Positions 9,720-25,790 of a DNA stretch of 64,000 bases are shown piece by piece. Source of the DNA: Betaproteobacteria bacterium (GTDB lineage: Bacteria; Pseudomonadota; Gammaproteobacteria; Burkholderiales; Burkholderiaceae_C). Within the stretch, counting starts at the first letter, position 1. Every line of letters starts with the position of its first letter. The notes beneath the pieces are model-generated. The model ran no database searches and was not told where the DNA came from. It worked only from the letters and a program-made list of their open reading frames with translations. The stretch lies in the NCBI GenBank assembly GCA_031379415.1, contig JANNFE010000166.1:156-64155 (forward strand), read 5' to 3'. A program made the position numbers and the translations under genes.

Positions 9720-10328
9720 TCAGCGACGCTCGGGCAGCGCGAAGCGTGCGCGCTGCTCGGCGCGTTCGACGGCGGCTGCGAGCGCCGCGCGACGCACGTC
9801 ACCGGGCGCCAGCTGCGCCAGCAGGCGCTGCCAGTGGCGCGCCGCGGTGGCCGGATCCTGGCGCTCCCAGGCGGCGCTGCCGGCCAGGTCAAGCGCGCGC
9901 GCATGGTCGGGCGCGAGCGCGAGGGCCCGGCCCACCAGCGCTGCGGCTTCGCCGCGCAGCGTGCCGCCATCGGCCAGGCCGCGGGCCTCTGCATAGTCCA
10001 GCCACACCTCGGGGTCGCCGGCCACCCGGGGGCTGGCGGCCACGGCACGCTGGAAAGCCGCCGCCGCAGCCTGGTGGCGTTCGGCGCGCAGTTCCAGACG
10101 GGCCTTCAACACCAGGGCGCGCGCATCGTCGGGCTGGCGTCTCAGGTGCGCGTCGAGCCCCGCCAGGGCCTCAGGGCTGGCGGCGGCACCACCGTCGGCG
10201 GCGGCCTGCAGCAGCTCGGCGCTCAGCGCCAGGCGGTCGCCGCGTGCGGCATCGGGCTCACCCTGCAGGGCGTACAGGCCGCCGGCCGCGGCCAGCACAC
10301 CGGCAGCCAATGCAGCTTGCAGTCTCAC
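9720..10328 (-). CDS. CcmI/CycH/NrfG-like TPR protein for cytochrome c maturation
   Basis: N-terminal TM (AALAAGVLAAAGGLYALQG), TPR helices L..HL...PDDARA.VL.AR, W.DYAEA...G.L.GEA..L..RAL.L.P.H.RAL.LAG.AA.E; GTG start overlaps the nrfA stop (GTGA). Confidence 0.8.
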   Translation of the reverse strand: MRLQAALAAGVLAAAGGLYALQGEPDAARGDRLALSAELLQAAADGGAAASPEALAGLDAHLRRQPDDARALVLKARLELRAERHQAAAAAFQRAVAASPRVAGDPEVWLDYAEARGLADGGTLRGEAAALVGRALALAPDHARALDLAGSAAWERQDPATAARHWQRLLAQLAPGDVRRAALAAAVERAEQRARFALPERR

Positions 10329-11953
10329 TTGACCGGCCGCCGCTTGGCCATGGCGTCGTCCAGCAGCTTGATGCCGGCCTGCGCGGCCACCATGCTCTTG
10401 TTCAGCGATTCCTCGGCCTGCTGCGGGTTGTGGAAGTAGCTGCCGTTGGAGGCCGACCACCATTCCCAGTTGACATGCGCTTCCTGGTGGCGGCTGCGCA
10501 CCGCGTCGAGCTCGCCGCCGTCCACGCCCAGGTTCTGCGCCGCCTCGAACTTGTCGATCAGCCGCACCAGCCAGTACTCCGCCTTGCGCATCTTGCCGAC
10601 CCACTTGTTCTTCAGCGAGTCGATGCTGTAGACGGCCTGCTTCTCGGTCCAGCCCTTGTGGCAGGTGAGGCAGGTCTCCTGAATGTAGTGGCGCGGCGAG
10701 GTCTGCCAGTGCGAGGTGTAGGTCTTGCCGGTCTTGGCGTCCTTCATCTTCGGCATGTGGCAGCCGCTGCACTCCACGCCCTGCTTCTGGTGCGTGCTGT
10801 TGTAGAAGACCTCGGCGTCGGGGTGCTGGCCCTTCCACAGCATGGCGTCGGTGATGGCGTGCTTGAAGTCGCCGAACTTCAGGTCCTTGTAGTGCTGCTG
10901 CACCTGCGTCACGTCCTTCAGCGGGAAGTGGTTGGTGCGGCCGTCGGCCATGCCGATGGGCTGGCCGGTGGCGGTGTCGGTGCCGGGGTTGCAGTTGTAT
11001 TCCACATGGCACTGCGCGCACTGCAGCTTCACGTCGTAGCGGCTGAGCATGGCGATCTTGCGCGTGTAGCCGCGTTCGCCCATGTCCTTGACCTCGATCT
11101 TCGCGCCCTTCGGGTCCTGGTGCCACAGCGTGTCGGCCTCGGGGCGCGTCAACGCCTGGATCAGCGCGTCACGGATGATGCGCGGCCGCGCCGAGTGCGG
11201 GTCGTGGCAGAAAATGCAGTTCAACGAGTGGTTGGTGTCCTTGACGAACTCGTTGACCTTGGACAGCCGGCTCCATTTCGCCTTGGGCTCGGGGTCGCCC
11301 AGGTAGGCCCAGTCGAGGATGTGGTCGGCCGACTTGCACGACATGCACACCGGGTTGGCGGCCGCCGCGGTGCCGGGCTTGAAGGCCTTGTGCGGCTCGC
11401 CGGGGTACTGGTCGTCCAGCACGTCCCAGATCCTGAACTCGCCGCCCATGCGCGTCAGCCCGGCCTTGCCCTGGCGGTTCTGGAAGCGGCCGCCGAAGGC
11501 GCGGTCCACCACCACCTGGTCATACAGCGCGAAGGCGTGCGAGCGCGGCTCGTTGTGTTCGCGCGTGAAGCCGTGCGGGGCCAGCAGCTTGTCGAAGGCA
11601 CCGCCGGTGGCCACCGCCTTTTCCTTGTGCGCGGTCTTGTCGGTGTTCATCGTGTACAGCGTGCGGAACTGGTTCTCGTGGCAGCCGCCGCAGTTGCCGG
11701 AGTCGGTCTTCGTCGTCGGCCGGCCCTTGCCCTTGGGCTTGTGCGTGTCCAGGCCGCCGTGGCAGGCATCGCAACCCACGGTCTTGTGCGCGCTGCCGGC
11801 GTGGAAGGCCTTGACCTCCTGGTGGCAGTCGTAGCAGTCGGTGGCGTCGTAAGGCTTCGCCTTGTTCTGCGCGGCAGCCGGAGCGCCCGCCAGCAGCAGG
11901 GCGCAGGCGGCAAGCAGGCACGCCAGTGCCGTCCTCACGATGGGGTGGATCAT
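10325..11953 (-). CDS. nrfA: Octaheme cytochrome c nitrite reductase (ONR/TvNiR type, NrfA superfamily)
   Basis: Seven CxxCH (CYDCH, CDACH, CGGCH, CIFCH, CAQCH, CSGCH, CLTCH) plus catalytic CMSCK; EPRSH Arg, HVEYNC Tyr/Cys, KGQHPD His, HGS-equivalent SNGSYFHNP; signal peptide; AGGAG SD. Confidence 0.9.
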   Translation of the reverse strand: MIHPIVRTALACLLAACALLLAGAPAAAQNKAKPYDATDCYDCHQEVKAFHAGSAHKTVGCDACHGGLDTHKPKGKGRPTTKTDSGNCGGCHENQFRTLYTMNTDKTAHKEKAVATGGAFDKLLAPHGFTREHNEPRSHAFALYDQVVVDRAFGGRFQNRQGKAGLTRMGGEFRIWDVLDDQYPGEPHKAFKPGTAAAANPVCMSCKSADHILDWAYLGDPEPKAKWSRLSKVNEFVKDTNHSLNCIFCHDPHSARPRIIRDALIQALTRPEADTLWHQDPKGAKIEVKDMGERGYTRKIAMLSRYDVKLQCAQCHVEYNCNPGTDTATGQPIGMADGRTNHFPLKDVTQVQQHYKDLKFGDFKHAITDAMLWKGQHPDAEVFYNSTHQKQGVECSGCHMPKMKDAKTGKTYTSHWQTSPRHYIQETCLTCHKGWTEKQAVYSIDSLKNKWVGKMRKAEYWLVRLIDKFEAAQNLGVDGGELDAVRSRHQEAHVNWEWWSASNGSYFHNPQQAEESLNKSMVAAQAGIKLLDDAMAKRRPVK

Positions 11954-14179: not shown

Positions 14180-14665
14180 ATGGCCAACACCAAGTTGCCT
14201 GCCACCCGCCCGCCGCACGCGGCGCGCCCTGCCCTGCCTTCGGCGCACACGCTGGACAAGACACACCACGAGGTGCTGCACCACCTGGAGCAACTGGCCG
14301 CGCTCGTGGCGCAGCTGGACGAAGCCGGCAGCACCGAGCCGCTGCGCGCGCTGGCCGCCGACATCTGCCGCTACTTCGACGGCCCGGCCCGCACCCACCA
14401 CGAAGCCGAGGAGCAGCGCCTGTTCCCGCGTCTGCAGGACCACCCCGACACCACGCTGGTGGACCATGTGCGCCGCCTGCAGCAGGAGCATGGCTGGCTG
14501 GAAGACGAGTGGCTGGAACTCGGCCCGCAGCTGCAGGCCGTGGCGCGCGGCTTCACCTGGGCCGATGCCGAAGCGCTGCGCCTGGCGGTGCCGGCCTTCA
14601 CGCAGCTCTACCGCGAGCACATTGCGCTGGAAGAGGCCATCGTCTACCCCGCCGGCAAGGCCTGA
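14180..14665 (+). CDS. Hemerythrin-like (HHE) domain protein
   Basis: H..(THHEV), HH..EE..LFP.L, L.QEH, Y.EHI.LEE..VYP diiron-binding pattern; ATG at 14180. Confidence 0.85.
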   Translation: MANTKLPATRPPHAARPALPSAHTLDKTHHEVLHHLEQLAALVAQLDEAGSTEPLRALAADICRYFDGPARTHHEAEEQRLFPRLQDHPDTTLVDHVRRLQQEHGWLEDEWLELGPQLQAVARGFTWADAEALRLAVPAFTQLYREHIALEEAIVYPAGKA

Positions 14666-16647
14666 GCCACCAGCTCGGCGATGTCGCGTGACTGTGCGCT
14701 GGCGCCTTCGATGGCGCCCAGGCCGTCGGCCATCATCACCGCGCAATAGGGGCAGGCGGTGGCGATGATGGCCGGTGCAGCCGTCAGCGCCTGCTGCACA
14801 CGGGCCACGTTGATGCGCGTGCCGATGTTCTCTTCCAGCCACATGCGCCCGCCGCCGGCGCCGCAGCACATGGCCTTCTCGCGCGACAGCGCGAACTCCA
14901 GCGGCGCGTCGCTGCACAAGCGCTGCAGCACGGCGCGCGGCGCGTCGAACTCGCCGTTGTGGCGGCCCAGATAACAGGGGTCGTGAAAGATCACGCGCTG
15001 CAACCGCCGCTGAACCTGGATGCGACCCTGCGCCATGAGCTCGGCGATGAGCTGCGTGTGGTGCAACACCTCGTAGTGGCCGCCGAACTCGGGGTACTCG
15101 TTGCGCAGCGTGTTGAAGGCATGCGGGTCGCAGGTGACGATGCGCTTCACGCCCAGCTCGTTCAAGGTCTGCACCAGGCCGCCCGCCAATTGCTGGAACA
15201 GCAGCTCGTTGCCCAGCCGCCGCACACATTCGCCGGTAGAACCTTCACGCGGCCCCAGCACGCCGAAGCGCAGCCCGGCGTGCTGCAGGATGCTGACGAA
15301 GGCGCGCGCGATCTTCTGGCCGCGCGGGTCGAAGGACATCGCCGAGCCGACGTAGAACAGCAGCTCCAGGCCCTCGGCATCGGCCTTCGTGCGCACCACC
15401 GGCACGCCCAGGCCTTGCGCCCAGTCGCCGCGCTGCGATGACTGCAGGCCCCAGGGGTTGCCCTGGGCTTCGTAGGCCTCGAAGAGCTTCTTCAGCTCGT
15501 GCGGAAACTGGCCCTCGATCATCACCTGGTGCTGGCGCAGGCGGAAGAACTTGTCCAGGTGCTCCAGCTCGATGGGGCAGGCCGCTTCGCAATAGCCGCA
15601 GGTGGTGCAGGCCCACAAGGTCTCGGGCGCGATGACCGTGCCCACCAGCGCCGGCAACTCGCCCTGGGGATCGTGCGCGACGATGCGTGCGCGCTCGGCC
15701 AGCAGGTGGTGCTTCAGGCTGTCGTTGACCATCTTCAGCGACAGCGGCTTGCCCGTCAGGTGCGTGGGGCAGGCGTCCTTGCAGCGGCCGCACTCGGTGC
15801 AGGTGAAGGCGTCCAGGCCCTCCTTCCAGTTCAGGTCGAGCGCGGTGCGCGCACCGGCGCGCATCTCGGCCTCGTCGGTGGCGGCCATGAGCTGCTCGAT
15901 ATCGACACGCGGCACCCGGTGGGCCGGCCGGCCGCGCCGGAAGAAGAGCGCCGGCAGGGCGGTGACGATGTGGAAGTGCTCGCCTGCCGGCAGCAGCACC
16001 AGGAAGCTGAACACGGTGAGCATCTGCAGCCAGTAGGCCAGCACCATGCCGGTGGCCTGCGCGCCCGGCGACAACCCCTGCAGCGCCTGCGCCACCGCCG
16101 CACCGGCAAAGGCCCAGTCGCGTTCATGCGCGATGCCCGGCACGCTGCCGGCCCGCTGCAGGAAGCGCAGGCCGTCGAAGGCCAGGTCGGTGAGCATGAT
16201 GGCCAGGATCAGGCCCAGCACCCCCAGCGCCTCGCGGTTGCGCTCCAGCCGCGCCGGGTGCTGCACCAAACGGCGGTGCAGGGCGTAGAGCACGGCGGCC
16301 GTGACGGCCAGCTCCACGGCATCCTTGAAGGCCGCGAAGGGCCCACCGAAGGCCGGCGGGAAGACGAAGTCGACATCCCAGCCGATGGCGATGAGCTGGA
16401 TCTTGCGCAGCAGCAGTGACAGGAAGCCGATGAAGATCACCGTGTGCATGAGCCCCGGCCGCCACTCGCGCCGCAGCATGCGCTGCTGCAACAGGCCGTT
16501 GAGCAGCACGCTCTGCAGGCGCGCGCCCGGGTGGTCGGTGCGCTGCACCGGCTGCAGCGCACGCACGATGCCCAGCTTGCGCCAGGCCAGGGCGCAAAAG
16601 CCCGCCAGGGCCAGCAGCATCAGCAGCGTGAGCGCGGCGGGTCCCAT
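14644..16647 (-). CDS. Membrane-bound Fe-S oxidoreductase, FadF/heterodisulfide reductase (HdrE/D)-like
   Basis: NarI-like TM part (G.MH..IF.GF, H...A), CTECGRCKDACP and CTTCGYCEAACP clusters, C-terminal CCG domain (HDPCYLGR, MCCGAGGG, TACPYC). Confidence 0.85.
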   Translation of the reverse strand: MGPAALTLLMLLALAGFCALAWRKLGIVRALQPVQRTDHPGARLQSVLLNGLLQQRMLRREWRPGLMHTVIFIGFLSLLLRKIQLIAIGWDVDFVFPPAFGGPFAAFKDAVELAVTAAVLYALHRRLVQHPARLERNREALGVLGLILAIMLTDLAFDGLRFLQRAGSVPGIAHERDWAFAGAAVAQALQGLSPGAQATGMVLAYWLQMLTVFSFLVLLPAGEHFHIVTALPALFFRRGRPAHRVPRVDIEQLMAATDEAEMRAGARTALDLNWKEGLDAFTCTECGRCKDACPTHLTGKPLSLKMVNDSLKHHLLAERARIVAHDPQGELPALVGTVIAPETLWACTTCGYCEAACPIELEHLDKFFRLRQHQVMIEGQFPHELKKLFEAYEAQGNPWGLQSSQRGDWAQGLGVPVVRTKADAEGLELLFYVGSAMSFDPRGQKIARAFVSILQHAGLRFGVLGPREGSTGECVRRLGNELLFQQLAGGLVQTLNELGVKRIVTCDPHAFNTLRNEYPEFGGHYEVLHHTQLIAELMAQGRIQVQRRLQRVIFHDPCYLGRHNGEFDAPRAVLQRLCSDAPLEFALSREKAMCCGAGGGRMWLEENIGTRINVARVQQALTAAPAIIATACPYCAVMMADGLGAIEGASAQSRDIAELVAQALPAG

Positions 16648-16665: not shown

Positions 16666-17655
16666 TCAGTACCGGCCGTGCGTCTTGTAGACGTAGTTGG
16701 CCAGCTCGGTGGCCTGCACCGACAGCCGCTTCTGCACCTGGTGAACGGCACGCACGATGGCGCACATCACGCGGTAGAGGATGCGCGGCTCGGTGTCGAG
16801 CAGGCTCTCGAGCCGATCGCGTTCCAGCAGCAGCACGCGTGCGTCGGTGGTGGCCACGAGCGAGGCATAACGCGGCGCGCCATCGAGGAAGCCGAGCTCG
16901 TGTGCCAGGTCACCCGCCACCAGCGTGGCCAGCAGGCTCTCTTCCGGCTGGCCGCGCGACTTCACCACACCCAGCGTGCCTTCCAGCACCACATACAGGC
17001 GCTGGTCGGCCGTGCCTTCCAGCGCCAGCAGGTGGCCGGCGGGCAGCACCTGCAACTGCATCAGGCCGGCCAGCGTGGCCGCCTGCTCGGGCGTGAGCTG
17101 CTCGGCCAGGCGGCAGCCGCGCACGGCGTCGAGCAGGGCGGTGTCAGGGGTGGGCATGGCAGTCTCCCTTGGAGTGATGGGTCTGGGCGCGGCTGCGGCC
17201 ACCGCCACCGGCAGCTTGCGGTCGCAGGGCAGCAGCGTCTCTTCGGCGCGCCGGATGAAGGACGCCACGATGGCGCGCGACACCGCTTCCACCGCCGGCA
17301 GCGCCAGGCGGTCGAGCAGGCCGTCGGCCATCTCGTAGGCCATCTCGAAAGTGATCTTGCAGCCCTGGTCGCCCAGCTGGCGCAACTGCCAGTCGCCCTG
17401 GAAGCGCTTGAACGGCCCTTCCACCAGACGCACCTGCAGCCATTCGGGCCGGCGCTTGGGGTTGCGCGTGGAAAAGGCGAAACGCAGCTGGTGGTAGCTG
17501 AAGTCCAGCCGCGCGGCCACCCACTCGTCGCTGCGCTCCAGGATGCGCGCGCCGCTGCAGAAGGGCAGGAAATGCGGGTAGTGCTCGGCGCCCTCGATGA
17601 GGTCGAACATGTCCTCCGCCGAGTAGGGCACGAGCAGACTGCGCTTGAACTCCAA
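16666..17655 (-). CDS. In-frame fusion of Coq10/RatA-type START domain and a cNMP-binding domain
   Basis: TTG start with AAGGAG SD; RS.LVPYSAE.MFDL....E.YP.FLP.C and GPFK...G.W START motifs; second half LYVVLEG.L.V...G.L..E.GFLDG.PR.A cNMP motif; a second SD plus ATG at 17157. Confidence 0.75.
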   Translation of the reverse strand: MEFKRSLLVPYSAEDMFDLIEGAEHYPHFLPFCSGARILERSDEWVAARLDFSYHQLRFAFSTRNPKRRPEWLQVRLVEGPFKRFQGDWQLRQLGDQGCKITFEMAYEMADGLLDRLALPAVEAVSRAIVASFIRRAEETLLPCDRKLPVAVAAAAPRPITPRETAMPTPDTALLDAVRGCRLAEQLTPEQAATLAGLMQLQVLPAGHLLALEGTADQRLYVVLEGTLGVVKSRGQPEESLLATLVAGDLAHELGFLDGAPRYASLVATTDARVLLLERDRLESLLDTEPRILYRVMCAIVRAVHQVQKRLSVQATELANYVYKTHGRY

Positions 17656-17736
17656 GCCTCACTCCTTGCAGCGCCAGGCCAGGCGACCACGGCGCCCGGT
17701 GTGTGCGCATGATCGGAGCGGCGCGCTGGGCGCAGG

Positions 17737-17750
17737 ACGATCTGGATCAA
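17737..17750. promoter_or_regulatory. FNR-like box ACGAT-CTGG-ATCAA
   Basis: One perfect half-site in a divergent intergenic region. Confidence 0.35.
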
Positions 17751-17790
17751 GCTCCTCGCAGCGTGCGCAGGCCCGCATGGCGCCACGACC

Positions 17791-17804
17791 TTGACATGGA
17801 TCAG
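17791..17804. promoter_or_regulatory. FNR box TTGAC-ATGG-ATCAG
   Basis: Two mismatches; in the divergent region between the Coq10-cNMP gene and the HyaE-like gene. Confidence 0.55.
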
Positions 17805-17867
17805 CCGGCCTGCGGGCAGCCCGCTCAGACTGCACGTCCACCCAGGCCACCGTCGAAAGGATGCGCG

Positions 17868-18299
17868 ATCAGCACGCCCGATCTGCCATCCGACCTGCAC
17901 CCGCTGCTGGCGCGGCTGGTGGCGGAAACCGGCGCCTCGGTGCTGGACGCCGAGGCCTTCGACGCCTGGGCGGCGCGGCCCGGTCCCGCCATGGCCTTGT
18001 TCGCCGAGGACGCCGACCGCTACAAGGAAGCGCTGGACCTCGCGGCCATCGTGCCCGAACTGCACGCCACCGCCGGCATGCGCTTCCGTGTCGCGCTGCT
18101 GCGGCCCGCCGCCGCGCACGTGCTGGCCGCACGCTACGGCTTCGAACGCTGGCCGGCCTTCGTCATCCTGCGCGACGGCCACTACCTCGGCGCCGTGAAC
18201 GCCTTCCGTGACCGCGGCGCCTACGTAGGCGAACTGCAGCGCCTGCTGAACGCAGCGGCCGGTACGAGCAGCCGGGCTGATGCAGGTCAAGGTCGATAG
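17868..18299 (+). CDS. HyaE/HupG-like thioredoxin-fold chaperone (start codon uncertain)
   Basis: HPLLARLV...G..VLD...FD.W.A..G.A.ALF.ED..RYKE.LDLA.IVPEL, A.RYGF.RWPA.V.LRDG.YLG pattern of HyaE; the best-placed in-frame start behind the AAAGGA SD is ATC at 17868. Confidence 0.7.
   Translation: MSTPDLPSDLHPLLARLVAETGASVLDAEAFDAWAARPGPAMALFAEDADRYKEALDLAAIVPELHATAGMRFRVALLRPAAAHVLAARYGFERWPAFVILRDGHYLGAVNAFRDRGAYVGELQRLLNAAAGTSSRADAGQGR
18277..18290. promoter_or_regulatory. FNR box CTGAT-GCAG-GTCAA
   Basis: Two mismatches; about 100 bp upstream of the monoheme cytochrome gene. Confidence 0.55.
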
Positions 18300-18391: not shown

Positions 18392-18697
18392 ATGAAACTG
18401 CATACCGCCCTTGCCCTTGCCTCGCTGCTGCTCGCCGGCCCCGTTCTCGCCGGCCCTGCCGAAGACATCGTGGCCAAGGAAAAGTGCAGCAAGTGCCACA
18501 CCGCCAGCACCACCAAGAAGGGGCCCTCGTGGGCTTCGGTGGCCGAGAAGTACAAGGGCAAGGCCGACGCGCCCGACAAGCTCGTCACCTACCTGAAGGT
18601 CGGCGGCAAGCAGAGCGACGGCGACGAACACAAGAAGGTCGAGGCCAGCGACGCTGACCTGAAGGCCATCGTGGCCATCGTGCTGTCGTCCAAGTAG
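18392..18697 (+). CDS. mtoD: Periplasmic class I monoheme cytochrome c, MtoD-like (predicted bis-His)
   Basis: Signal peptide, CSKCH, GPSW..VAEKYKGKADA..KL, DG.EHK; no Met in the mature chain; AGGAGG SD. Confidence 0.75.
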   Translation: MKLHTALALASLLLAGPVLAGPAEDIVAKEKCSKCHTASTTKKGPSWASVAEKYKGKADAPDKLVTYLKVGGKQSDGDEHKKVEASDADLKAIVAIVLSSK

Positions 18698-18734
18698 GCC
18701 TGCGGCCTGGCGCCGCACCCGCGGAAGCATCAGG

Positions 18735-19358
18735 ATGAACGAGCCGCAGAACCCAGGTGCCCTGCGCCGCTTCATGCGCTGGCTGTTCACGCCGTCGGCG
18801 CGCTGGTCGCTGTTCACGCTGTTGCTGGTGGGTGGCGTGGCTGGCGCGGTGGCGGTCATCGGCACGCAGGTGGCGGTGCATATCACCGGCACCGACGAGT
18901 TCTGCGGCAACGCCTGCCACTCGCACGCCAAGTTCGTGTTCCCTGAGCACAAGACCTCGGCGCACTACAACAACCGCACCGGCGTGCGTGCCCTCTGCGT
19001 GGACTGCCACCTGCCGCACACCTACCCGGCCAAGCTCTTTGCCAAGGCCAAGGCCGGCATCAAGGACGGGCTGGCCGAGCTGCGCGGCACCATCGCCACG
19101 CAGGAGAAGTTCGAGCGTGAGCGCTGGCGCATGGCCAACATCGTGTGGGACGAGATGAAGGAGAACAACTCCGCCAACTGCCGCAGCTGCCACGACCCCG
19201 CCGCCTGGGACGCCAAGAAGCAGAGCGAAGACGCCACCAAGGCGCACAGGAAGTTCAGCGCGGGCAAGGCCACGTGCATCGAGTGCCACACCGGCGTGGC
19301 CCACAAGGAACCCGAAGAACCCAAGGCGCCTGCCATGGCAGCGTCTGCACCGGGCTGA
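18735..19358 (+). CDS. napC: NapC/NirT/CymA family tetraheme quinol dehydrogenase
   Basis: N-terminal TM, T.TDEFCGNACH, H..NRTGVRA.CVDCHLPH, NSANCRSCH, TCIECH.GVAH. Confidence 0.9.
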   Translation: MNEPQNPGALRRFMRWLFTPSARWSLFTLLLVGGVAGAVAVIGTQVAVHITGTDEFCGNACHSHAKFVFPEHKTSAHYNNRTGVRALCVDCHLPHTYPAKLFAKAKAGIKDGLAELRGTIATQEKFERERWRMANIVWDEMKENNSANCRSCHDPAAWDAKKQSEDATKAHRKFSAGKATCIECHTGVAHKEPEEPKAPAMAASAPG

Positions 19359-19489
19359 GTGCACCGCGAAGCGCAGGTCCGCCGTGCCTGCAGGGGACCG
19401 GTGGCGCAGCCATCTGCAGATCTTCTTGTGTCAGCACGTGTTGCGCGTTATTTTTGTGATTGGTGACTTCCCTTGGCCCACCAGCAACA

Positions 19490-19503
19490 CTGATGTGAAT
19501 CAA
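19490..19503. promoter_or_regulatory. FNR box CTGAT-GTGA-ATCAA
   Basis: One mismatch; in an AT-rich promoter patch upstream of mtrC. Confidence 0.7.
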
Positions 19504-19624
19504 CTTTTGCAGCAGGCTCGCTTGTAGATTGGCCTGCCGAAGACGAGACGTCCCGCGGGAATGCGTGCACCGCATCACCGCCGAAGCGCGCCGCGTCGGG
19601 CCGCACACATCGAGGAGAACATTC

Positions 19625-22402
19625 ATGAAGCAACGCCGCTGGATGGGATGTATCGCCTCGGGCCTGATGGCCGCCGTGCTGGCGGCCTGCGGCGGCAGCG
19701 GCGACACCGGCCCCGCCGGGCCCAACGGGCCTGCCGGCCCGGCCGGACCTGCCGGACCTGCGGGCCCGTCAGGACCTGCGGGCCCCGCAGGCCCTTCCGG
19801 TTCCGGCGGCGGCGCGACATTCGCCGTGGGCAGCAATGCGCTCACCAACACCAGCGCCATCACCGCCAATGCGGCGGCCTGGTCGGCGCTGGAGCCCGTG
19901 GTCACCATCACCAGCGTCACCATCACCGACAAGCCGGTGGTCAACTTCATGGTCAAGGACGGCTTCGGCCGCGCCGTCACCGGCCTGGGCAATACCAGCA
20001 AGTCGGCCACGGCGACGGCGGCCAGTCTGCCCAACCTGGCCTTCGCGCTGGCCAAGCTGCTGCCCGGCAGCAACGGCAGCCCCAGCAAGTGGGTGAGCTA
20101 CATCGTCACCACGGTGCCCAGCACCACCACGGCAGCGGCTCCCACGCGGCCCAGCACCGACAGCACGGGCACGCTGGTGGACAACGGCGACGGCAGCTAC
20201 CGCTACACCTTCTACCGCGACATCACGCAGGTCAAGACGCAGGTCGACGGCATGACGGTGAGCGGCACCAACAACAAGGCCGATCTCGGCGATCTCAGCT
20301 ACAACGCCAACCTCACGCACCGCTTGACGCTGCAGCTGTCCGGCAACGCACCCGCCACGGGCAGCAACACGCCCACCGGCGCCGCCTCGGCCGTGGCCGC
20401 GGTGCCGATGAAGAAGCCGGTGGACGTGATCTACGACTTCATCCCCTCCGCGGGCCGCGCGGTGACCAGCGCCGATGCCCAGCGCGACATCGTGGCCAAC
20501 GCCAAGTGCGAGGAATGCCACCGCAAGCTGGGCGGCATACCGGGCCTGAGCGAGGAGGCGGCCGCTGCCGGCTTCCACGGCGGCAGCCGCAACAACGTGC
20601 AGTACTGCACCGTCTGCCACACCGAGCAGCGCCGCTATGGCCGCGCCGAAGCCACGGCCACCACCAACGGTGCCATCAAGACCTTCACGAGCAGCTCCTA
20701 CGTGCTGGACAACCGCACCATCGGCGACCTGCCCAACTACATCCACAAGGTGCACGCCGGCCCGCTGCTGGCCCACAAGAACTACGACTACGGCGGCGTG
20801 GGCTTCAACGAGACCACCTATCCGCAGGACCTGCGCAACTGCACCAAGTGCCACGACGGCTCCACCACGTCCACTGCGAAGACGCTGCAGGGCGACAACT
20901 GGAAGAATGCGCCCAGCGCCAAGGCCTGCGGCTCCTGCCACGACGGCATCAACTTCGCCACCGGCACCGGCGTGCGCATGGCCGACGCCGTCAAGGGTCT
21001 GACCACCAGCGCCTTCGCCCACCCGGCCGGCCCGCAGGCCGACGACGCGCTGTGCGCGCTGTGCCACAAGCCCGACGTCATCGACGTCACCCACCTGCCG
21101 GTGACGCCGCCCAACCTGGCCAGTGCGCTGCACGTGGCCGGCGGCAACGCCAACAGCAACGCGGCCTGGATCGCTTCCAACGTGGCGCGCCTGCCCGCGG
21201 GTGCCATCGTCGTCACCTACGACGTGAAGACCGTCTCGCGCAACGCCGGCAAGCAGCCGGTGATGGTCTTCCGCATGCTGCAGAACGGCGCGCGCAAGGA
21301 CCTCAACGCCAACACCGCGGCAGAGCTGTGGGACGGCTACACCGGCGCGCCGAGCGTGTACTTCGTGTTCGCGGTGCCGCAGGACGGCATCGTCGCACCG
21401 GCCGACTTCAACGCCACCGCCTCGGTCTACCTGAAGACACTGTGGAAAGGCACGGGCACCGGCACCGCCGCCGGCACGCTGACCGGCCCCGACGCCGACG
21501 GCTACTACACCGCCACGCTGACCGGCGTGCAGGTGCCCGACAGCGCGAAGATGCTGACCGGCGGTCTGGGCTACTCCTACAACGTATCGAGCGCCCTGCC
21601 ACTGACGCAGACCAACCTGGCCGACTACCCCCTCACCGCCACCACGGTGCCCGGGCAGAGCAACCCGACCGGCGGCCTGATCGTCATTGCGCCCAACGTG
21701 CAGAAGGTGGCCACCGGCTACACGGGCCGGCGCGCCATCGTCACCGACGCCCGCTGCAACGCCTGCCACCAGGAGCTGGGCGCCTTCACCGAGGAAGCGT
21801 TCCATGGCGGCCAGCGCAACGACGCCACCACCTGCAGCTGGTGCCACACGCCCAACCGCGCCAGCAGCGGCTGGTCGGCCGACTCCACCAGCTTCATCCA
21901 CGCCACGCACGCGGCGGCCAAGCGCACGGTGGACTACAACTGGCATGCCGTGTCGGCCACCGAGGGCTTCTGGAAGATCGGCTACCCCGGCATCCTGAAC
22001 CAGTGCGAAACCTGCCACCTGCCGGGCACCTACGACTTCAGCGCCACGGCGTCGGCGGCAGCCATGGACAACCGGCCCTACCGCACGGTAGCCAGCGGCA
22101 CCTTGAGTCCATCGGTGTCGACCTCGCCCTACGTCAACACCGGCGTGAACTACGGCAGCGGCTACAGCTTCAATGCGGGCACCGGCGTCATTGCCGATGC
22201 CGCCGCCACGACGCTGGTGACCTCGCCCACGGCCACGGCCTGCTTCGCCTGCCACGACAGCAACCAAGCGGTGTCGCACTACAGGATCAACGGTGGTTCG
22301 ATCTACGCACCGCGCAGCACGGCGCTCGGCACCACCGAGACCTGCATGGTCTGCCACGGCCCCGGGCGCGTGGCCGAGATCAAGGCCTCGCACGCGAAGT
22401 GA
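19625..22402 (+). CDS. mtrC: OmcA/MtrC family decaheme outer-membrane lipoprotein cytochrome
   Basis: Lipobox LAAC; ten CxxCH in two groups of five separated by beta domains (GTLVDNGDGSY.YTF, RDIVA..KC, YPQD.RNCTKCH, RR.IV...RCNACH); GAGGAG SD. Confidence 0.92.
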   Translation: MKQRRWMGCIASGLMAAVLAACGGSGDTGPAGPNGPAGPAGPAGPAGPSGPAGPAGPSGSGGGATFAVGSNALTNTSAITANAAAWSALEPVVTITSVTITDKPVVNFMVKDGFGRAVTGLGNTSKSATATAASLPNLAFALAKLLPGSNGSPSKWVSYIVTTVPSTTTAAAPTRPSTDSTGTLVDNGDGSYRYTFYRDITQVKTQVDGMTVSGTNNKADLGDLSYNANLTHRLTLQLSGNAPATGSNTPTGAASAVAAVPMKKPVDVIYDFIPSAGRAVTSADAQRDIVANAKCEECHRKLGGIPGLSEEAAAAGFHGGSRNNVQYCTVCHTEQRRYGRAEATATTNGAIKTFTSSSYVLDNRTIGDLPNYIHKVHAGPLLAHKNYDYGGVGFNETTYPQDLRNCTKCHDGSTTSTAKTLQGDNWKNAPSAKACGSCHDGINFATGTGVRMADAVKGLTTSAFAHPAGPQADDALCALCHKPDVIDVTHLPVTPPNLASALHVAGGNANSNAAWIASNVARLPAGAIVVTYDVKTVSRNAGKQPVMVFRMLQNGARKDLNANTAAELWDGYTGAPSVYFVFAVPQDGIVAPADFNATASVYLKTLWKGTGTGTAAGTLTGPDADGYYTATLTGVQVPDSAKMLTGGLGYSYNVSSALPLTQTNLADYPLTATTVPGQSNPTGGLIVIAPNVQKVATGYTGRRAIVTDARCNACHQELGAFTEEAFHGGQRNDATTCSWCHTPNRASSGWSADSTSFIHATHAAAKRTVDYNWHAVSATEGFWKIGYPGILNQCETCHLPGTYDFSATASAAAMDNRPYRTVASGTLSPSVSTSPYVNTGVNYGSGYSFNAGTGVIADAAATTLVTSPTATACFACHDSNQAVSHYRINGGSIYAPRSTALGTTETCMVCHGPGRVAEIKASHAK
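19699..19800 (+). repeat. 9-bp-period repeat encoding collagen-like Gly-X-Y linker (GDT GPA GPN GPA GPA GPA GPA GPS GPA GPA GPS)
   Basis: ggccccgccgggcccaacgggcctgccggcccggccggacctgcc... directly after the lipidated Cys of MtrC. Confidence 0.85.
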
Positions 22403-22404
22403 CG

Positions 22405-22707
22405 ATGCGACACCGGCGCTTCTATGGACTGGCCCTGACATGGCTTGCCTTTGCAGCCGCGCAGGGCGCGGCCTGGGCTGCCCCGCAGGCATCAGCGACG
22501 CTGGTCGACATCAACAGCGCCAGCCGCCAGCAACTGCAGACGCTGCCCGGCGTCGGCGCGGCCGAGGCCGCCCGCATGGTTGCCGGCCGGCCCTACCTGA
22601 GCAAGGCTGAACTGGTGACCCGGCGGGTGCTGGCCACCGGGCCCTACCTGTCGCTGAAGAACCGTATCGTGGCCCTGCAGCCGGCTGCACCCCCGCGGCG
22701 GAAGTGA
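22405..22707 (+). CDS. Exported ComEA-like helix-hairpin-helix protein
   Basis: Signal peptide; LVDINSAS..QLQTLPGVG.A.A.R.VA.RPY.SK.ELV.R.VL HhH motif; 2 bp after the mtrC stop, stop abuts the mtrA ATG. Confidence 0.85.
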   Translation: MRHRRFYGLALTWLAFAAAQGAAWAAPQASATLVDINSASRQQLQTLPGVGAAEAARMVAGRPYLSKAELVTRRVLATGPYLSLKNRIVALQPAAPPRRK

Positions 22708-23667
22708 ATGGACATCCGCCATGCCTTCTGTGTCGGTCTGGTGCTGCTGGGCAGCCTGGCGGGATGCACACCCGCCGCGGCGCAGACCCCGGCCGCCGAC
22801 AGCGGCCCCGGCACTGAATACAGTGAGAAAGGTGCCGACACCTGCCTGGAGTGCCACGACGACGAGACGCCGGGCTACTCAGGCTCGGCCCTCTTCAAGG
22901 GCCGCCACGCCCACCGCGCCGACCCGCGTGCGCCCTTCGGCGCGGGCGGCCTGCAGTGCGAGGCCTGCCACGGCCCCGGCGGCCGCCACGCCGCCAAAGG
23001 CAGCAAGAAGAAGCTGACCATCAACAGCCTGAAGGCCGACTCCTTCCTGCCCGTGGCCGCGCGCAACCAGAGTTGCCTGGCCTGCCACCAGAACCAGGCC
23101 CGCAGCGCCTGGCACGCGGGTGCGCATGAACGCGGCAAGCTGGCCTGCACCGACTGCCACAAGATGCACGTGGAGAGCGACGCCGTACTCGTCAAGGCCA
23201 GCGAAGCCGCCGTGTGCTTTGCCTGCCACAAGCAGCAGCGCGCCGACTTCCACAAGACCTCGTCGCACCCGGTGCAGGGCGGCCGCATGAGCTGCAGCGA
23301 CTGCCACAACGCCCATGGCACGGTGGCCGCGGCCAGCCTGGTCAAGCCGACGCTGAACCAGACCTGCACCACCTGCCACGCCGACAAACGCGGCCCCAAG
23401 CTGTGGGAGCACGCGCCGGTGGCCGAAGACTGCGCGCTGTGCCACACGCCGCATGGTTCGGTGCGCCAGGCCATGCTCACCAAGAGCCCGCCGCAGCTGT
23501 GCCAGCAGTGCCACACGGCAGCGGGCCATCCTTCGGTGGCGCGCGGCGGCAACTCGCTGCCGGGTGGCAGCGGCAGCGCCATCTTTGCCGTGGCCGGCGG
23601 CTGCAGCAACTGCCACTCGGCGGTGCACGGCTCCAACCATCCCTCGGGCGCCAAGCTCATGCGCTGA
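22708..23667 (+). CDS. mtrA: DmsE/MtrA/MtoA family periplasmic decaheme cytochrome
   Basis: Ten CxxCH; YS.KGADTCL.CHD, LQCEACHGPG..H, S.HPV..G.MSCSDCHN.HG, KRGP.LWEHAPV.EDC..CH.PHGS, HGSNHPSG. Confidence 0.93.
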   Translation: MDIRHAFCVGLVLLGSLAGCTPAAAQTPAADSGPGTEYSEKGADTCLECHDDETPGYSGSALFKGRHAHRADPRAPFGAGGLQCEACHGPGGRHAAKGSKKKLTINSLKADSFLPVAARNQSCLACHQNQARSAWHAGAHERGKLACTDCHKMHVESDAVLVKASEAAVCFACHKQQRADFHKTSSHPVQGGRMSCSDCHNAHGTVAAASLVKPTLNQTCTTCHADKRGPKLWEHAPVAEDCALCHTPHGSVRQAMLTKSPPQLCQQCHTAAGHPSVARGGNSLPGGSGSAIFAVAGGCSNCHSAVHGSNHPSGAKLMR

Positions 23668-23696
23668 AGCGCAGCACCCCGCACCCGGACGCCACC

Positions 23697-25790
23697 ATGA
23701 GCCACACCACGCCCTTGCTGATCTTGGCCGCCTGCGGACTGTTGTCCGCAGCCGCCACGCAGGCCGTGGCAGCCGCGGACACCTCGAAGTGGACCTGCTC
23801 GGCCTGCCCCTACGAGAAGGCCGGTGTCAGCGGCAGTGTCGAAGCCGGCGCGGGTGCGGTGACGGGCGAGCGCGCGCGCTACGGTGCCGATAACGGCCTG
23901 AACGGCAAGCGCGGGTTCGGGGTGCTGGGTGGCACGCTGCGCTACCGAGATGGCACGGACCTCTACGGCAGTGGGGTGGCCGAGGACATCGGCCTCGACA
24001 TGCGGGCGCTGGCCGCCGAACTGGGGCGCGAAGGCAGCTGGCGCTTGAACCTCGGCGTCAGCCAGTGGCCGCATCAGCTGGAAGGCGCCGGCCGTTCGCC
24101 CTTCATCGGCGCCGGCAGCGGCGTGCAGACCCTGCCCTTCCCAGCCGCTGCATCACCGGCGCAGATGCCGCTGGCGAGCAGCCTGCAGCCGGTGGACCTG
24201 GGCACGCAGCGCACGCGCAGCGAATTGTCGGCACTGTGGATCGTCGGCCCCGAATGGACGCACCGCGTGAGCCTGCGCCATGACGTGCGCGACGGCACGC
24301 AGCGCCTGGGTGCTTCCTTCTTCTCCACCAGCAGCCTGCTGGCCGCGCCGGTGGACCAGACCACCGACCAGCTGGAACTGTCCACCAGCTACGCCGGCCG
24401 CGGCATCAACGCCACGCTGGCCTACCAAGCGTCGATCTTTCGCAACGCCGAAGGCTCGGTGACCTGGTCCAACCCCTACAACCCCGTGGTGGCCGGCGCC
24501 AGCCGCGGGCAGCTGGCGCTGGCACCGTCCAACCAGTTCCACCAGCTGATGGCCAGCGGAGGCATCGAACTCGCGCCGCGCATGCGGCTGAGCGGCGACG
24601 TGGCCATCGGCCGCATGACGCAGGACGAAGCCTTCCTGGCGCCGACGCTCAACCCGACGCTGGCCGCCGCGGCCAGCGCGGCCATGCCGGCAGCTTCGCT
24701 CGACGGCCGCGCCGACACTTTCAACGCCAGCGTGCAGCTGTCGGCCGCACCGGCCGAGGGCCTGCGCCTGAACGCCAGCGTGGCGCGCAACGTGCGCGAC
24801 AACCAGACCACCAGCCGGCTGTACCCGGCGCTGTCGACCGACACGTTCCTGGACCCTGGCGCGCGGCGCGCACCGGCTTTCAGCTTCAAGCAGAACCGCT
24901 TCAAGGCCGGTGCCGACTACCGCATCGGCCGCACCGCCACCGTGGCTGCAGGCGTGGAGCGCGACGAGCGCATCCGTTCCTGGCAGGACGTGGTGTCGAC
25001 GCGCGAGACCACGCTGTGGGCACGCGGCAGCGTGCAGCCCACGGAAGAACTGGCGCTGTCGCTGAAAGTCTCGCGTGCCGAGCGTGACCCCAGCAGCTAC
25101 GGCAGCGCCACCTGGGTCACGTCGCCGCAGAACCCGCTGCTGCGCAAGTTCAACCTGGCCGAGCGCAACCGCGAGACGGCCGCGCTGCGCGCCGACCTCA
25201 CGCTGAGCGAGGCGCTCAGCATCGGCCTGCACGTCGACCTGTCGCGCGACACCTTCCCCGACGCCGTGCTCGGCATGACGCTGGCGCGCAACCTGAGTGG
25301 TGGCGCCGACATCGCCTACACCGTGTCGGAGCAGACCCAGCTGCATGCCTTTGCGCAGGCCGAGCGCATGCGCTCGATGCAGGCCGGCAGCGAAGCCTTT
25401 GGCGCGCCCGACTGGTGGAGCCGCAGCCACGACACCGCGCACGTGCTGGGCTTCGGCGTCAAGCACAGCGCGCTGAAGGGGCGGCTCGAAGTTGGCGGTG
25501 ATGTCGTGATGTCGCGCTCGCGCGCCAACGTTGGCGTGGTTACCCGGGTGGCCGAAACACCCTACCCCACCGCCACGCAGCAGCGCGACAGCCTGCGACT
25601 GCACGCCACCTGGAAGCTGAAGGACGGCATGTCCATCGTCGGCCGCTACGCCTTCGAACGCCAGGCGCAGGCCGACTGGCGGCTCGACGGCCTACAGCCC
25701 GACACGCTGGTCAACCTGCTGGCCCTGGGTGAGACGCCGCCCAACTACCGCGTCAACGTCTTCAGCGTGGCGCTGCGCTACAGCTTCTGA
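23697..25790 (+). CDS. mtrB: MtrB/PioB family beta-barrel porin
   Basis: Signal peptide, N-terminal W.CSAC motif, P.D.TT, LAP.NQFHQ, G...QDE.FL, NPLLRKFNLA.R.R, C-terminal YSF. Confidence 0.92.
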   Translation: MSHTTPLLILAACGLLSAAATQAVAAADTSKWTCSACPYEKAGVSGSVEAGAGAVTGERARYGADNGLNGKRGFGVLGGTLRYRDGTDLYGSGVAEDIGLDMRALAAELGREGSWRLNLGVSQWPHQLEGAGRSPFIGAGSGVQTLPFPAAASPAQMPLASSLQPVDLGTQRTRSELSALWIVGPEWTHRVSLRHDVRDGTQRLGASFFSTSSLLAAPVDQTTDQLELSTSYAGRGINATLAYQASIFRNAEGSVTWSNPYNPVVAGASRGQLALAPSNQFHQLMASGGIELAPRMRLSGDVAIGRMTQDEAFLAPTLNPTLAAAASAAMPAASLDGRADTFNASVQLSAAPAEGLRLNASVARNVRDNQTTSRLYPALSTDTFLDPGARRAPAFSFKQNRFKAGADYRIGRTATVAAGVERDERIRSWQDVVSTRETTLWARGSVQPTEELALSLKVSRAERDPSSYGSATWVTSPQNPLLRKFNLAERNRETAALRADLTLSEALSIGLHVDLSRDTFPDAVLGMTLARNLSGGADIAYTVSEQTQLHAFAQAERMRSMQAGSEAFGAPDWWSRSHDTAHVLGFGVKHSALKGRLEVGGDVVMSRSRANVGVVTRVAETPYPTATQQRDSLRLHATWKLKDGMSIVGRYAFERQAQADWRLDGLQPDTLVNLLALGETPPNYRVNVFSVALRYSF

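What the first reader, a model, noticed from the sequence alone, without database searches (positions are those of the whole stretch)
18392..25790. MtoD-like bis-His monoheme (oxidiser marker) in the same cluster as MtrC (reducer marker)
Seen: the mature monoheme has no Met at all, and a His (DGDEHKK) occupies the usual distal ligand position. The pattern CxKCH..GPS..VAEKY.GKADA..KL closely resembles Sideroxydans MtoD as recalled. Known: MtoD is a bis-His class I cytochrome from an Fe(II) oxidiser whose mtoAB lacks MtrC, while MtrC characterises Fe(III) reducers. Inference: a hybrid conduit that may be bidirectional, with MtoD as the periplasmic shuttle instead of STC/FccA.
Basis: partly seen in the sequence, partly recalled or inferred. 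Interest (0 to 1): 0.65.

Follow-up and report, generated by a model that had tools for sequence, protein, structure and literature searches.

The report
Known betaproteobacterial MtoD–CymA–MtrCAB electron conduit
The window carries a complete gene set for moving electrons between the cell's quinone pool and minerals outside the cell, and its small MtoD-like cytochrome is real, but this gene combination was already published for related bacteria, including a proven metal reducer.

Summary
At 18392-25790 the + strand encodes six genes:
- a 101-aa class I monoheme cytochrome
- a NapC/NirT tetraheme ("CymA-beta")
- a decaheme MtrC lipoprotein
- a small HhH protein
- decaheme MtrA
- the porin MtrB

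The mature monoheme has no Met. Its only other His (H80, DGDEHKK) aligns with His95, the distal ligand of Sideroxydans MtoD (PDB 4XXL; 41% identity). H80 is invariant in 120 close homologues.

MtoD is not an oxidiser marker. Baker et al. 2022 (mBio) already list MtoD and CymA-beta homologues, and a conserved HhH gene, in betaproteobacterial mtrCAB clusters. Their list includes the metal reducer Rhodoferax ferrireducens T118, which has three MtoD homologues. They state that the direction of electron flow cannot be inferred.

I found the monoheme in 66 Rubrivivax/Aquabacterium/Caldimonas-type species genomes. It lies within 10 kb of mtr genes in 48 of the 53 informative loci.

New here:
- FNR-type boxes are conserved upstream of both transcription units.
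- The genome has no PmcA homologue and no detectable menaquinone pathway, and it has RuBisCO.

Direction of flow stays unresolved; I mildly favour outward flow at low oxygen. This is a new member of a known kind and of low interest.

The parts
18277..18290 (.). FNR/Crp-type box (CTGATGCAGGTCAA, 2 mismatches to TTGAT-N4-ATCAA), about 100 bp upstream of the monoheme gene
   Evidence: A box with at most 2 mismatches lies within 250 bp upstream of the orthologous gene in 46/65 loci, against 8.5% of random 250-bp windows.
18392..18697 (+). MtoD-like class I monoheme cytochrome c, 101 aa; C32/C35/H36 plus H80; predicted bis-His; Sec signal peptide
18735..19358 (+). NapC/NirT-family tetraheme inner-membrane quinol/quinone oxidoreductase ('CymA-beta'). 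The heme 1 motif is CX3CH (FCGNACHSH).
   Evidence: PF03264, 187 bits. 40% identical to ES-1 ImoA, E 3e-45. CX3CH is conserved in 35/38 NapC/NirT-type ORFs found in the loci. It is the only NapC/NirT gene in the genome.
19436..19458 (+). Weak terminator-like hairpin plus T-run in the 267-bp gap between cymA-beta and mtrC
   Evidence: This is a consensus match only.
19490..19503 (.). Second FNR/Crp-type box (CTGATGTGAATCAA, 1 mismatch), about 125 bp upstream of mtrC
   Evidence: A box is conserved upstream of mtrC in 16/20 orthologous loci.
19625..22402 (+). MtrC/OmcA-family decaheme outer-surface lipoprotein, 925 aa. A lipobox (LAAC) is followed by 13 collagen-like G-X-Y triplets.
   Evidence: TIGR03507, 423 bits against 209. 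PF22113 matches twice. 10 CxxCH. MtrF 3PMQ, E 2e-20. G-X-Y runs of 30-42 aa occur in about 30 of the decaheme (MtrC-like) ORFs found in the loci.
22405..22707 (+). Secreted helix-hairpin-helix (ComEA-like) protein, 100 aa, packed tightly between mtrC and mtrA
   Evidence: PF12836 HHH_3, 29 bits. It is conserved between mtrC and mtrA in most loci. Baker et al. noted it.
22708..23667 (+). MtrA, periplasmic/porin-inserted decaheme cytochrome, 319 aa
   Evidence: TIGR03508, 282 bits against 192. 10 CxxCH. 6R2Q chain A, E 1e-84. 38% identical to ES-1 MtoA.
23697..25790 (+). MtrB, outer-membrane beta-barrel porin, 697 aa, with an N-terminal CSAC motif
   Evidence: PF11854, 476 bits. TIGR03509, 421 bits against 240. 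6R2Q chain B (695 aa), E 8e-75. It is the only MtrB in the genome.

Best explanation
This is an ordinary member of the published betaproteobacterial Mtr pathway (the Baker et al. 2022 type: MtoD + CymA-beta + MtrC + HhH + MtrAB). It sits in a Rubrivivax-like Burkholderiales genome from a metagenome.

Proposed mechanism:
- The NapC/NirT tetraheme CymA-beta exchanges electrons with the inner-membrane quinone pool. That pool is probably ubiquinone only.
- The MtoD-like monoheme is a soluble periplasmic carrier between CymA-beta and MtrA. Its heme is ligated by H36 and H80 (bis-His).
- MtrA, threaded through MtrB, wires the outer membrane.
- MtrC, on a lipid anchor with a collagen-like tether, is the surface contact for minerals.
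- Two transcription units (monoheme-cymA and mtrC-HhH-mtrA-mtrB) each sit behind a conserved FNR-type box, so the pathway is probably switched on at low oxygen.

The gene content does not fix the direction of flow. I mildly favour outward flow, that is, anaerobic reduction of high-potential extracellular acceptors such as Mn(IV) or chelated Fe(III), with reversal possible.

Shown: gene identities, ligand alignment, conservation, linkage and the conserved boxes. Inferred: bis-His ligation, the shuttle role, FNR control and direction. My confidence is about 0.9 for identity and family, and about 0.5 for the outward direction.
For: Identity:
- Pfam and NCBIfam matches are above the curated cut-offs for MtrC, MtrA and MtrB and for the NapC/NirT domain.
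- PDB matches: 6R2Q chains A and B at 1e-84 and 8e-75, MtrF at 2e-20, and MtoD 4XXL at 3e-12 with His95 aligned to H80.
- H80 is invariant in 120 homologues, and 80 of 105 distant cluster representatives keep His at that column.

Linkage:
- 48 of 53 informative species-level loci have mtr genes within 10 kb of the monoheme, and 37 have the CymA-beta gene adjacent.
- In 151 genomes sampled about one per genus from the family, the monoheme and MtrB co-occur (10 with both, 4 and 3 with one only, 134 with neither; Fisher p 2e-10).
- It is the sole candidate shuttle among those searched for. The genome has one MtoD-like gene, one NapC/NirT gene and no PmcA homologue.

Prior publication: Baker et al. 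text and Table S1.

Low-oxygen control: FNR-type boxes are conserved upstream of the monoheme gene (46/65 loci against 8.5% background) and of mtrC (16/20).

Outward direction:
- The CX3CH heme 1 motif is shared with the two CymA homologues of the reducer R. ferrireducens and not with ES-1 ImoA.
- MtrA and MtrB score higher against Shewanella MtrAB than against ES-1 MtoAB. The two sets of scores come from different programs.
- T118 carries three MtoD homologues and, per Baker Table S1, reduces Mn(IV) and chelated Fe(III) but not Fe(III) oxide. That fits a ubiquinol-fed, high-potential chain.
Against: - Ligation is inferred from sequence only.
- In ES-1, MtoD (+155 mV) did not bind MtoA or ImoA in NMR titrations, and PmcA was the real partner. 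The window protein is only 41% identical to MtoD and falls in a separate supported subclade, so properties may not carry over in either direction.
- Against outward flow: no MenD above the cut-off and no MqnA, so no menaquinone pathway was detected, as in the oxidiser ES-1. RuBisCO is present. A second complex I operon starts 148 bp after mtrB, an adjacency seen in 14 loci.
- FNR control is equally compatible with microaerobic or nitrate-dependent Fe(II) oxidation.
Confidence: 0.55

Rival explanations
1. Electron uptake. The conduit mainly imports electrons from Fe(II), Mn(II) or a cathode. MtrCAB passes them to the MtoD-like cytochrome. From there they go partly to a high-potential sink (cbb3 oxidase or a nitrite/NO reductase) and partly through CymA-beta into ubiquinone. 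The adjacent second complex I then runs in reverse to make NAD(P)H for CO2 fixation.
For: - RuBisCO large subunit is present.
- No menaquinone pathway was detected, as in ES-1.
- The second nuo operon directly follows mtrB here, and nuoA lies near the mtr cluster in 14 related loci. Its NuoD paralogue is 39% identical.
- The 2026 work on ES-1 proposes that MtoD feeds a terminal oxidase.
- Ramlibacter lithotrophicus expresses mtrCAB on Mn(II), and Ideonella sp. A288 and JOSHI_001 deposit metal oxides.
Against: - The same gene set, including MtoD homologues and CX3CH CymA, occurs in the reducer R. ferrireducens T118.
- MtrAB is of the Shewanella type, and the genome has no PmcA-like low-potential carrier.
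- RuBisCO and two complex I operons do not, on their own, point to iron oxidation.
- The three closest relatives (L002, L004, L005) lack nuoA within the fetched flank.
Confidence: 0.3
2. The monoheme is not the Mtr shuttle. As reported for MtoD in ES-1, it does not contact MtrA or CymA-beta. It serves a side branch, for example to an oxidase or a periplasmic reductase, while an unlinked cytochrome carries electrons across the periplasm.
For: - ES-1 MtoD showed no NMR interaction with MtoA or ImoA.
- Five loci with full 10-kb flanks have the monoheme without mtr genes, and some follow hydrogenase-maturation-like genes (identified by eye).
- 4 of 14 sampled genomes with the monoheme lack MtrB.
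Against: - It lies 37 bp upstream of cymA-beta behind a shared conserved box.
- 48 of 53 informative loci are linked to mtr genes, and co-occurrence has p 2e-10.
- The genome has no PmcA homologue and no second NapC/NirT gene.
- In Shewanella lacking FccA and STC, MtoD did carry electrons from CymA to MtrA in vivo.
- The octaheme nitrite reductase 6 kb upstream co-occurs with the monoheme in only 1 of 66 loci.
Confidence: 0.12
3. The heme is not bis-His. The sixth position is instead Lys (K81/K82), or the heme is five-coordinate.
For: - Two Lys residues follow H80 (HKK).
- No spectroscopy exists for this subfamily.
- AlphaFold2 does not model heme.
Against: - H80 aligns with the crystallographic ligand His95 of MtoD.
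- H80 is invariant, while K81 and K82 vary (HKS, HNK, HLK, HKQ).
- His/Met ligation is excluded, because the mature protein has no Met.
Confidence: 0.04

Closest known systems
Betaproteobacterial mtrCAB clusters with MtoD, CymA-beta and HhH (Baker et al. 2022 mBio, Groups 4 and 3-beta: e.g. Aquincola sp. S2, Niveibacterium sp. COAC-50, Burkholderiales bacterium RIFCSPHIGHO2_12_FULL_69_20, Albidoferax ferrireducens T118)
   Same: The parts list is the same: MtoD-like monoheme, NapC/NirT CymA-beta, MtrC, an HhH gene between mtrC and mtrAB, and MtrAB. One listed genome (RIFCSPHIGHO2_12_FULL_69_20) is my locus L003, whose monoheme is 70% identical. The CX3CH CymA motif matches that reported for T118.
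   Different: This is a different genome (a MAG). It has a single MtoD and a single CymA, whereas T118 has three and two, and no CbcL-type MtoC was seen in the cluster. I did not test which Baker group it belongs to. The conserved FNR boxes, the nuo adjacency and the collagen-like MtrC tether are not mentioned in that paper.
Mto pathway of Sideroxydans lithotrophicus ES-1 (MtoD-MtoA-MtoB-ImoA-PmcA; PDB 4XXL)
   Same: The monoheme is 41% identical to MtoD, with both ligand residues aligned. CymA-beta is 40% identical to ImoA, and MtrA is 38% identical to MtoA. Both organisms appear to use ubiquinone only.
   Different: ES-1 has no MtrC and no HhH gene. ES-1 has PmcA (His/Met, -143 mV), which is its real ImoA/MtoA partner, and this genome has none. 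The loop before the distal His is about 4 residues shorter here. MtoB is 810 aa against 697 aa and only 25% identical. ImoA has CxxCH at heme 1, and here it is CX3CH. The gene order also differs.
Shewanella MtrCAB with CymA and STC/FccA (PDB 6R2Q, 3PMQ)
   Same: The outer-membrane module is of this type: MtrA E 1e-84, MtrB E 8e-75 with nearly the same length, and MtrC in the OmcA/MtrC family with 10 hemes and a lipobox.
   Different: The periplasmic carrier encoded in the cluster is a bis-His monoheme, not the tetraheme STC or FccA. No menaquinone pathway was detected. cymA lies inside the cluster. MtrC has a collagen-like tether, and there is an extra HhH gene.

Membership tests
MtoD (bis-His class I cytochrome c, Sideroxydans type) | Small soluble class I c-type cytochrome with one N-terminal CxxCH | tested here: met
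   PF00034, 28 bits against a cut-off of 21. One CxxCH. The AlphaFold2 model (pLDDT 77) matches c551/c552 and 4XXL with TM-scores of 0.6-0.8. The fold alone does not separate MtoD from His/Met relatives.
MtoD (bis-His class I cytochrome c, Sideroxydans type) | Distal axial ligand is His (His95 in MtoD), with no Met ligand | tested here: met
   H80 aligns with His95. The mature protein has no Met. H80 is invariant in 120 homologues. This is sequence evidence only; the ligation itself was not measured.
MtoD (bis-His class I cytochrome c, Sideroxydans type) | Orthology: same subclade as ES-1 MtoD | tested here: not met
   41% identity over 80 aa. In a tree of 99 sequences, the window protein sits in a separate 12-member clade (SH-aLRT 98), and MtoD groups elsewhere among longer-loop forms. 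It is a homologue within the His-type group, not a demonstrated orthologue. The tree rests on few columns.
MtoD (bis-His class I cytochrome c, Sideroxydans type) | High potential (+155 mV) and unusually exposed heme | not testable with these tools
   This needs potentiometry and a structure with heme. The model predicts a short beta-hairpin (residues 72-73 and 79-80) before H80, like MtoD's beta-loop.
MtoD (bis-His class I cytochrome c, Sideroxydans type) | Encoded next to an MtoA/MtrA-MtoB/MtrB porin-cytochrome pair and a NapC/NirT cytochrome | tested here: met
   The arrangement is conserved in 48 of 53 informative loci.
MtrCAB porin-cytochrome complex | Decaheme MtrA, MtrB/PioB barrel, and surface decaheme lipoprotein of the OmcA/MtrC family, encoded together | tested here: met
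   TIGR03508 at 282 bits against 192, TIGR03509 at 421 against 240, and TIGR03507 at 423 against 209. MtrA and MtrC each have 10 CxxCH. The lipobox LAAC and the MtrB CSAC motif were read from the sequence.
CymA / NapC-NirT quinol dehydrogenases | N-terminal membrane helix plus four c-heme sites in the NapC/NirT fold | tested here: met
   PF03264, 187 bits over 174 of 174 positions. There are three CxxCH and one CX3CH. It scores below the NapC and TorC equivalog cut-offs, so it is a family member but not NapC or TorC proper. The membrane helix was judged by eye.
PmcA (ES-1 low-potential His/Met monoheme, partner of ImoA and MtoA) | Sequence similarity to Slit_2494 and a Met distal ligand | tested here: not met
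   The monoheme gives no BLAST hit to ES-1 PmcA. tblastn of PmcA against the genome at E up to 1e-4 finds nothing. The mature protein has no Met.

The most novel reading that the evidence does not exclude
In ubiquinone-only Burkholderiales, a conserved block works as one FNR-controlled 'high-potential Mtr' module. The block is: Coq10-like quinone binder, bis-His MtoD-like cytochrome, CX3CH CymA-beta, collagen-tethered MtrC, HhH, MtrAB, and often a second complex I. The module would link NAD(P)H to extracellular Mn/Fe chemistry in either direction. The bis-His monoheme, rather than a PmcA- or STC-type carrier, would tune the pathway to ubiquinone-level potentials. The link between mtr and the second complex I, and the conserved FNR boxes, are not described in the papers I read.
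Probability: 0.2. Interest if true: 0.55.

Novelty: new member of a known kind. Interest (0 to 1): 0.22.

Why it matters
It is not new. The MtoD + MtrC combination is the standard betaproteobacterial layout and has been in print since 2012-2022.

What this case does add is modest:
- It shows how widespread and tightly linked the MtoD-like/CymA-beta pair is in Rubrivivax-type freshwater bacteria.
- It shows that these genomes lack the PmcA carrier now thought to be the real shuttle in Sideroxydans.
- It shows that both promoters carry conserved low-oxygen regulator boxes.

This makes these organisms a cleaner system than ES-1 for asking what a bis-His MtoD-type cytochrome does, and which way betaproteobacterial Mtr pathways run.

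Tried and rejected
- A diverse alignment (A2) could not be used to scan genome contigs, because it had no conserved 7-10-column stretch. I used the closer alignment A1 instead. The scan therefore reached only Burkholderiales relatives with at least about 50% identity.
- The Foldseek comparison does not discriminate. 4XXL ranks fifth, behind His/Met c551/c552, although it has the highest identity (37%). No model coordinates were available to measure the H36-H80 distance.
- I tested whether the octaheme nitrite reductase 6 kb upstream (10325-11953, minus strand) is a conserved partner of the monoheme/CymA pair. It co-occurs in only 1 of 66 loci, so I rejected this.
- I tested whether the monoheme could be PmcA-like, since it sits next to the NapC-type gene as PmcA does in ES-1. 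There is no similarity, so I rejected this.
- Searches of the genome for menaquinone genes (MenD, MqnA) found nothing above the cut-offs. The MAG is 97% complete, so absence is likely but not proven.
- The sigma-70 promoter scan found nothing.
- I did not assign the cluster to Baker's Group 3 or Group 4. Loci show two MtrA lineages next to the same monoheme (61-76% against about 41% identity).

Full report
**Observation**

The + strand between 18392 and 25790 carries six tightly packed genes.

| Coordinates | Product | Key evidence |
|---|---|---|
| 18392-18697 | 101-aa monoheme cytochrome | see below |
| 18735-19358 | 207-aa NapC/NirT-family tetraheme | PF03264, 187 bits |
| 19625-22402 | 925-aa decaheme lipoprotein, OmcA/MtrC family | TIGR03507, 423 bits against cut-off 209 |
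| 22405-22707 | 100-aa secreted helix-hairpin-helix protein | PF12836 |
| 22708-23667 | decaheme MtrA | TIGR03508, 282 bits against 192 |
| 23697-25790 | porin MtrB | TIGR03509, 421 bits against 240 |

The monoheme precursor has a Sec-type leader (…AGPVLA|GPAED) and one CxxCH (C32, C35, H36). No Met follows the initiator. H80, in DGDEHKK, is the only other mature His.

**Is it MtoD-like and bis-His?**

- A HMMER search of all PDB sequences gives Sideroxydans MtoD (4XXL) as the best single-domain match, E 3e-12. Ordinary His/Met c552/c551 follow at 2e-8 or worse.
- In that alignment, C32/C35/H36 fall on C43/C46/H47, and H80 falls on His95.
- The MtoD structure paper names His47 and His95 as the axial ligands (PMC4412085).
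- I fetched the ES-1 mto locus (L068). The window protein is 41% identical to MtoD over 80 residues (E 2e-14). It has no similarity to PmcA, the second ES-1 monoheme.
- H80 is invariant in the 120 closest database homologues. About half of those carry one Met, but at column 74, which varies (Q/T/M/V/I or deleted).
- Among 105 single-heme representatives of 50%-identity clusters, 80 keep His at this column. The canonical 'PMPP' Met types are the more distant ones.
- On a tree, the His/Met label needs only 5 changes, against 17.7 for shuffled labels.
- On that tree, the window protein lies in its own supported 12-member clade, apart from MtoD proper. Its loop before the His is about four residues shorter.
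- It is therefore an MtoD-family homologue with the same predicted ligation, not a shown orthologue.
- An AlphaFold2 model (pLDDT 77) has the class I fold. Foldseek cannot separate MtoD from c551/c552.

**Is the combination with MtrC unusual? No.**

- Baker et al. 2022 (PMC8805035) state that mtoC and mtoD homologues occur next to mtrCAB almost exclusively in their Betaproteobacteria-dominated Group 4, plus betaproteobacterial members of Group 3. They draw these proteins into their pathway models, and they note a conserved HhH gene beside mtrC.
- Their Table S1 lists MtoD for Aquincola sp. S2, Niveibacterium sp. COAC-50, Ideonella sp. A288, JOSHI_001 and Polaromonas. It lists two for Ramlibacter lithotrophicus and three (MtoD-1, -2, -3) for the metal reducer Albidoferax (Rhodoferax) ferrireducens T118.
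- The table also lists 'CymA-beta' for several of these genomes, and for Burkholderiales bacterium RIFCSPHIGHO2_12_FULL_69_20. That genome is one of the loci I retrieved (L003).
- MtoD is therefore not a marker of oxidisers, and the cluster is not a hybrid of two systems.

**My own survey agrees**

- A scan of one genome per species found the monoheme in 66 genomes. All are Burkholderiales labelled Rubrivivax, Aquabacterium, Caldimonas, Leptothrix, Ideonella or Rhizobacter.
- Of the 53 loci with enough flanking DNA to judge, 48 have mtr genes within 10 kb.
- Of those 48, 29 have the window's colinear layout: monoheme, then cymA in some, then mtrC-HhH-mtrA-mtrB.
- 37 loci have the CymA-beta gene adjacent, and 14 have nuoA within the fetched flank, in most cases just after mtrB.
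- Two MtrA lineages (61-76% and about 41% identical to the window's) sit beside the same monoheme. This fits the modular evolution that Baker et al. describe.
- In 151 genomes sampled about one per genus from the window's family, the monoheme (E ≤ 1e-10) and MtrB co-occur. Ten genomes have both, four have the monoheme only, three have MtrB only, and 134 have neither (Fisher p 2e-10).

**How it probably works**

- The outer-membrane module is of the Shewanella type. MtrA and MtrB match S. baltica 6R2Q chains A and B at 1e-84 and 8e-75. MtrB is 697 aa against 695 aa. ES-1 MtoB is 810 aa and only 25% identical.
- The inner-membrane cytochrome is 40% identical to ES-1 ImoA. Its first heme site is CX3CH (FCGNACHSH), and this is conserved in 35 of the 38 NapC/NirT-type ORFs found in the loci.
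- The same atypical motif was reported for the two CymA homologues of R. ferrireducens (PMC6295460). ImoA has CIGCH.
- The genome is 5.16 Mb in 430 contigs and 97% complete. It has one MtrB, one MtrC, one MtrA, one NapC/NirT gene and one MtoD-like gene, and no PmcA homologue.
- The monoheme is thus the only candidate periplasmic carrier encoded in the cluster, and none of the homologues I searched for exists elsewhere in the genome. It lies 37 bp upstream of cymA-beta.
- This matters because 2026 work on ES-1 found that PmcA (His/Met, -143 mV), not MtoD (+155 mV), binds ImoA and MtoA. MtoD could nevertheless carry electrons from CymA to MtrA in Shewanella cells (PMC13390432).

**Regulation**

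- FNR/Crp-type boxes lie about 100 bp upstream of the monoheme gene (18277) and about 125 bp upstream of mtrC (19490). The window holds 17 such matches, against 3.4 expected.
- The boxes are conserved. 46 of 65 orthologous loci have a box with at most 2 mismatches within 250 bp upstream of the monoheme gene, against 8.5% of random windows. 16 of 20 have one upstream of mtrC.
- A weak terminator-like hairpin lies between cymA-beta and mtrC.
- I infer two transcription units, both induced at low oxygen. This was not tested experimentally.

**Direction of flow**

For outward flow:
- the Shewanella-type MtrCAB;
- the CX3CH CymA shared with a proven reducer;
- MtoD homologues in that same reducer;
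- FNR-type control;
- T118's reported preference for Mn(IV) and chelated Fe(III) over Fe(III) oxide, which fits a ubiquinol-fed chain.

For uptake:
- no MenD above the cut-off and no MqnA, so probably ubiquinone only, as in ES-1;
- RuBisCO is present;
- a second complex I operon starts 148 bp after mtrB, and its NuoD is 39% identical to the copy on contig C214.

I put outward flow as the main mode at about 0.5, uptake at about 0.3, and leave the rest open. Bidirectionality is plausible but not shown.

**Verdict**

Its central premise, that oxidiser and reducer markers were combined, is wrong.
- The arrangement is already published.
- This is a new member of a known kind and of low interest.

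Noticed in passing
window 18735-19358 (motif near residue 57): The CymA-beta/NapC-like cytochrome has CX3CH (FCGNACHSH) instead of CxxCH at heme 1, the heme nearest the membrane helix and presumed quinone site. It is conserved in 35 of the 38 NapC/NirT-type ORFs found in the loci. It was reported before only as a 'putative atypical motif' in the two R. ferrireducens CymA homologues. ES-1 ImoA has CIGCH.
   Followed up: partly
window 19625-19790 (MtrC N-terminus): Right after the lipobox Cys, MtrC has 13 collagen-like G-X-Y triplets (GPAGPNGPAGPAGP…). G-X-Y runs of 30-42 aa occur in about 30 of the decaheme (MtrC-like) ORFs found in related loci. Searches of the Baker paper and of the paper library for 'collagen' with MtrC turned up no paper on such a linker. 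It could be a stalk or an oligomerising tether.
   Followed up: partly
window 25939 onward (nuoA...), 148 bp after mtrB: A complete nuo operon directly follows mtrB. nuoA lies within the fetched flank in 14 related loci, in most cases just after mtrB, but not in the three closest relatives. The genome has a second complex I on contig C214, with NuoD 39% identical. Baker et al. do not mention nuo or NADH.
   Followed up: partly
window 16666-17655 (-) and 14644-16647 (-): A Coq10/START-domain protein fused to a cNMP-binding domain lies upstream of the monoheme gene on the opposite strand. A homologue lies close to the monoheme gene in 22 loci. A 667-aa membrane Fe-S/CCG-domain oxidoreductase next to it is conserved in 14 loci. 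Both suggest a quinone-related neighbourhood.
   Followed up: partly
window 17703-18299 (+); loci L047, L052, L063: The ORF just upstream of the monoheme has a HyaE (hydrogenase expression) domain. In three loci where the monoheme lacks mtr neighbours, the upstream genes look by eye like hydrogenase-maturation genes (hypA/F in L047, hypD/E in L052, hypD in L063). This may be the ancestral site of the monoheme-cymA pair.
   Followed up: no
window 22405-22707: A secreted HhH (ComEA-like) protein is built into the operon between mtrC and mtrA. It starts 2 bp after the mtrC stop and ends right at the mtrA ATG. It is conserved in most related loci. Baker et al. noted the gene but gave it no function.
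   Followed up: partly
loci L013, L023, L024, L026, L032, L034, L039, L048, L058 and others: Many related loci also carry an 11-heme cytochrome of about 700-800 aa near the mtr genes. The window has no such gene.
   Followed up: no
PDB entry 6R2Q chain A: The local PDB name table labels the MtrA chain of 6R2Q 'Cystathionine beta-synthase' and the MtrB chain 'Uncharacterized protein'. These depositor names mislead; the match is to MtrA and MtrB.
   Followed up: no
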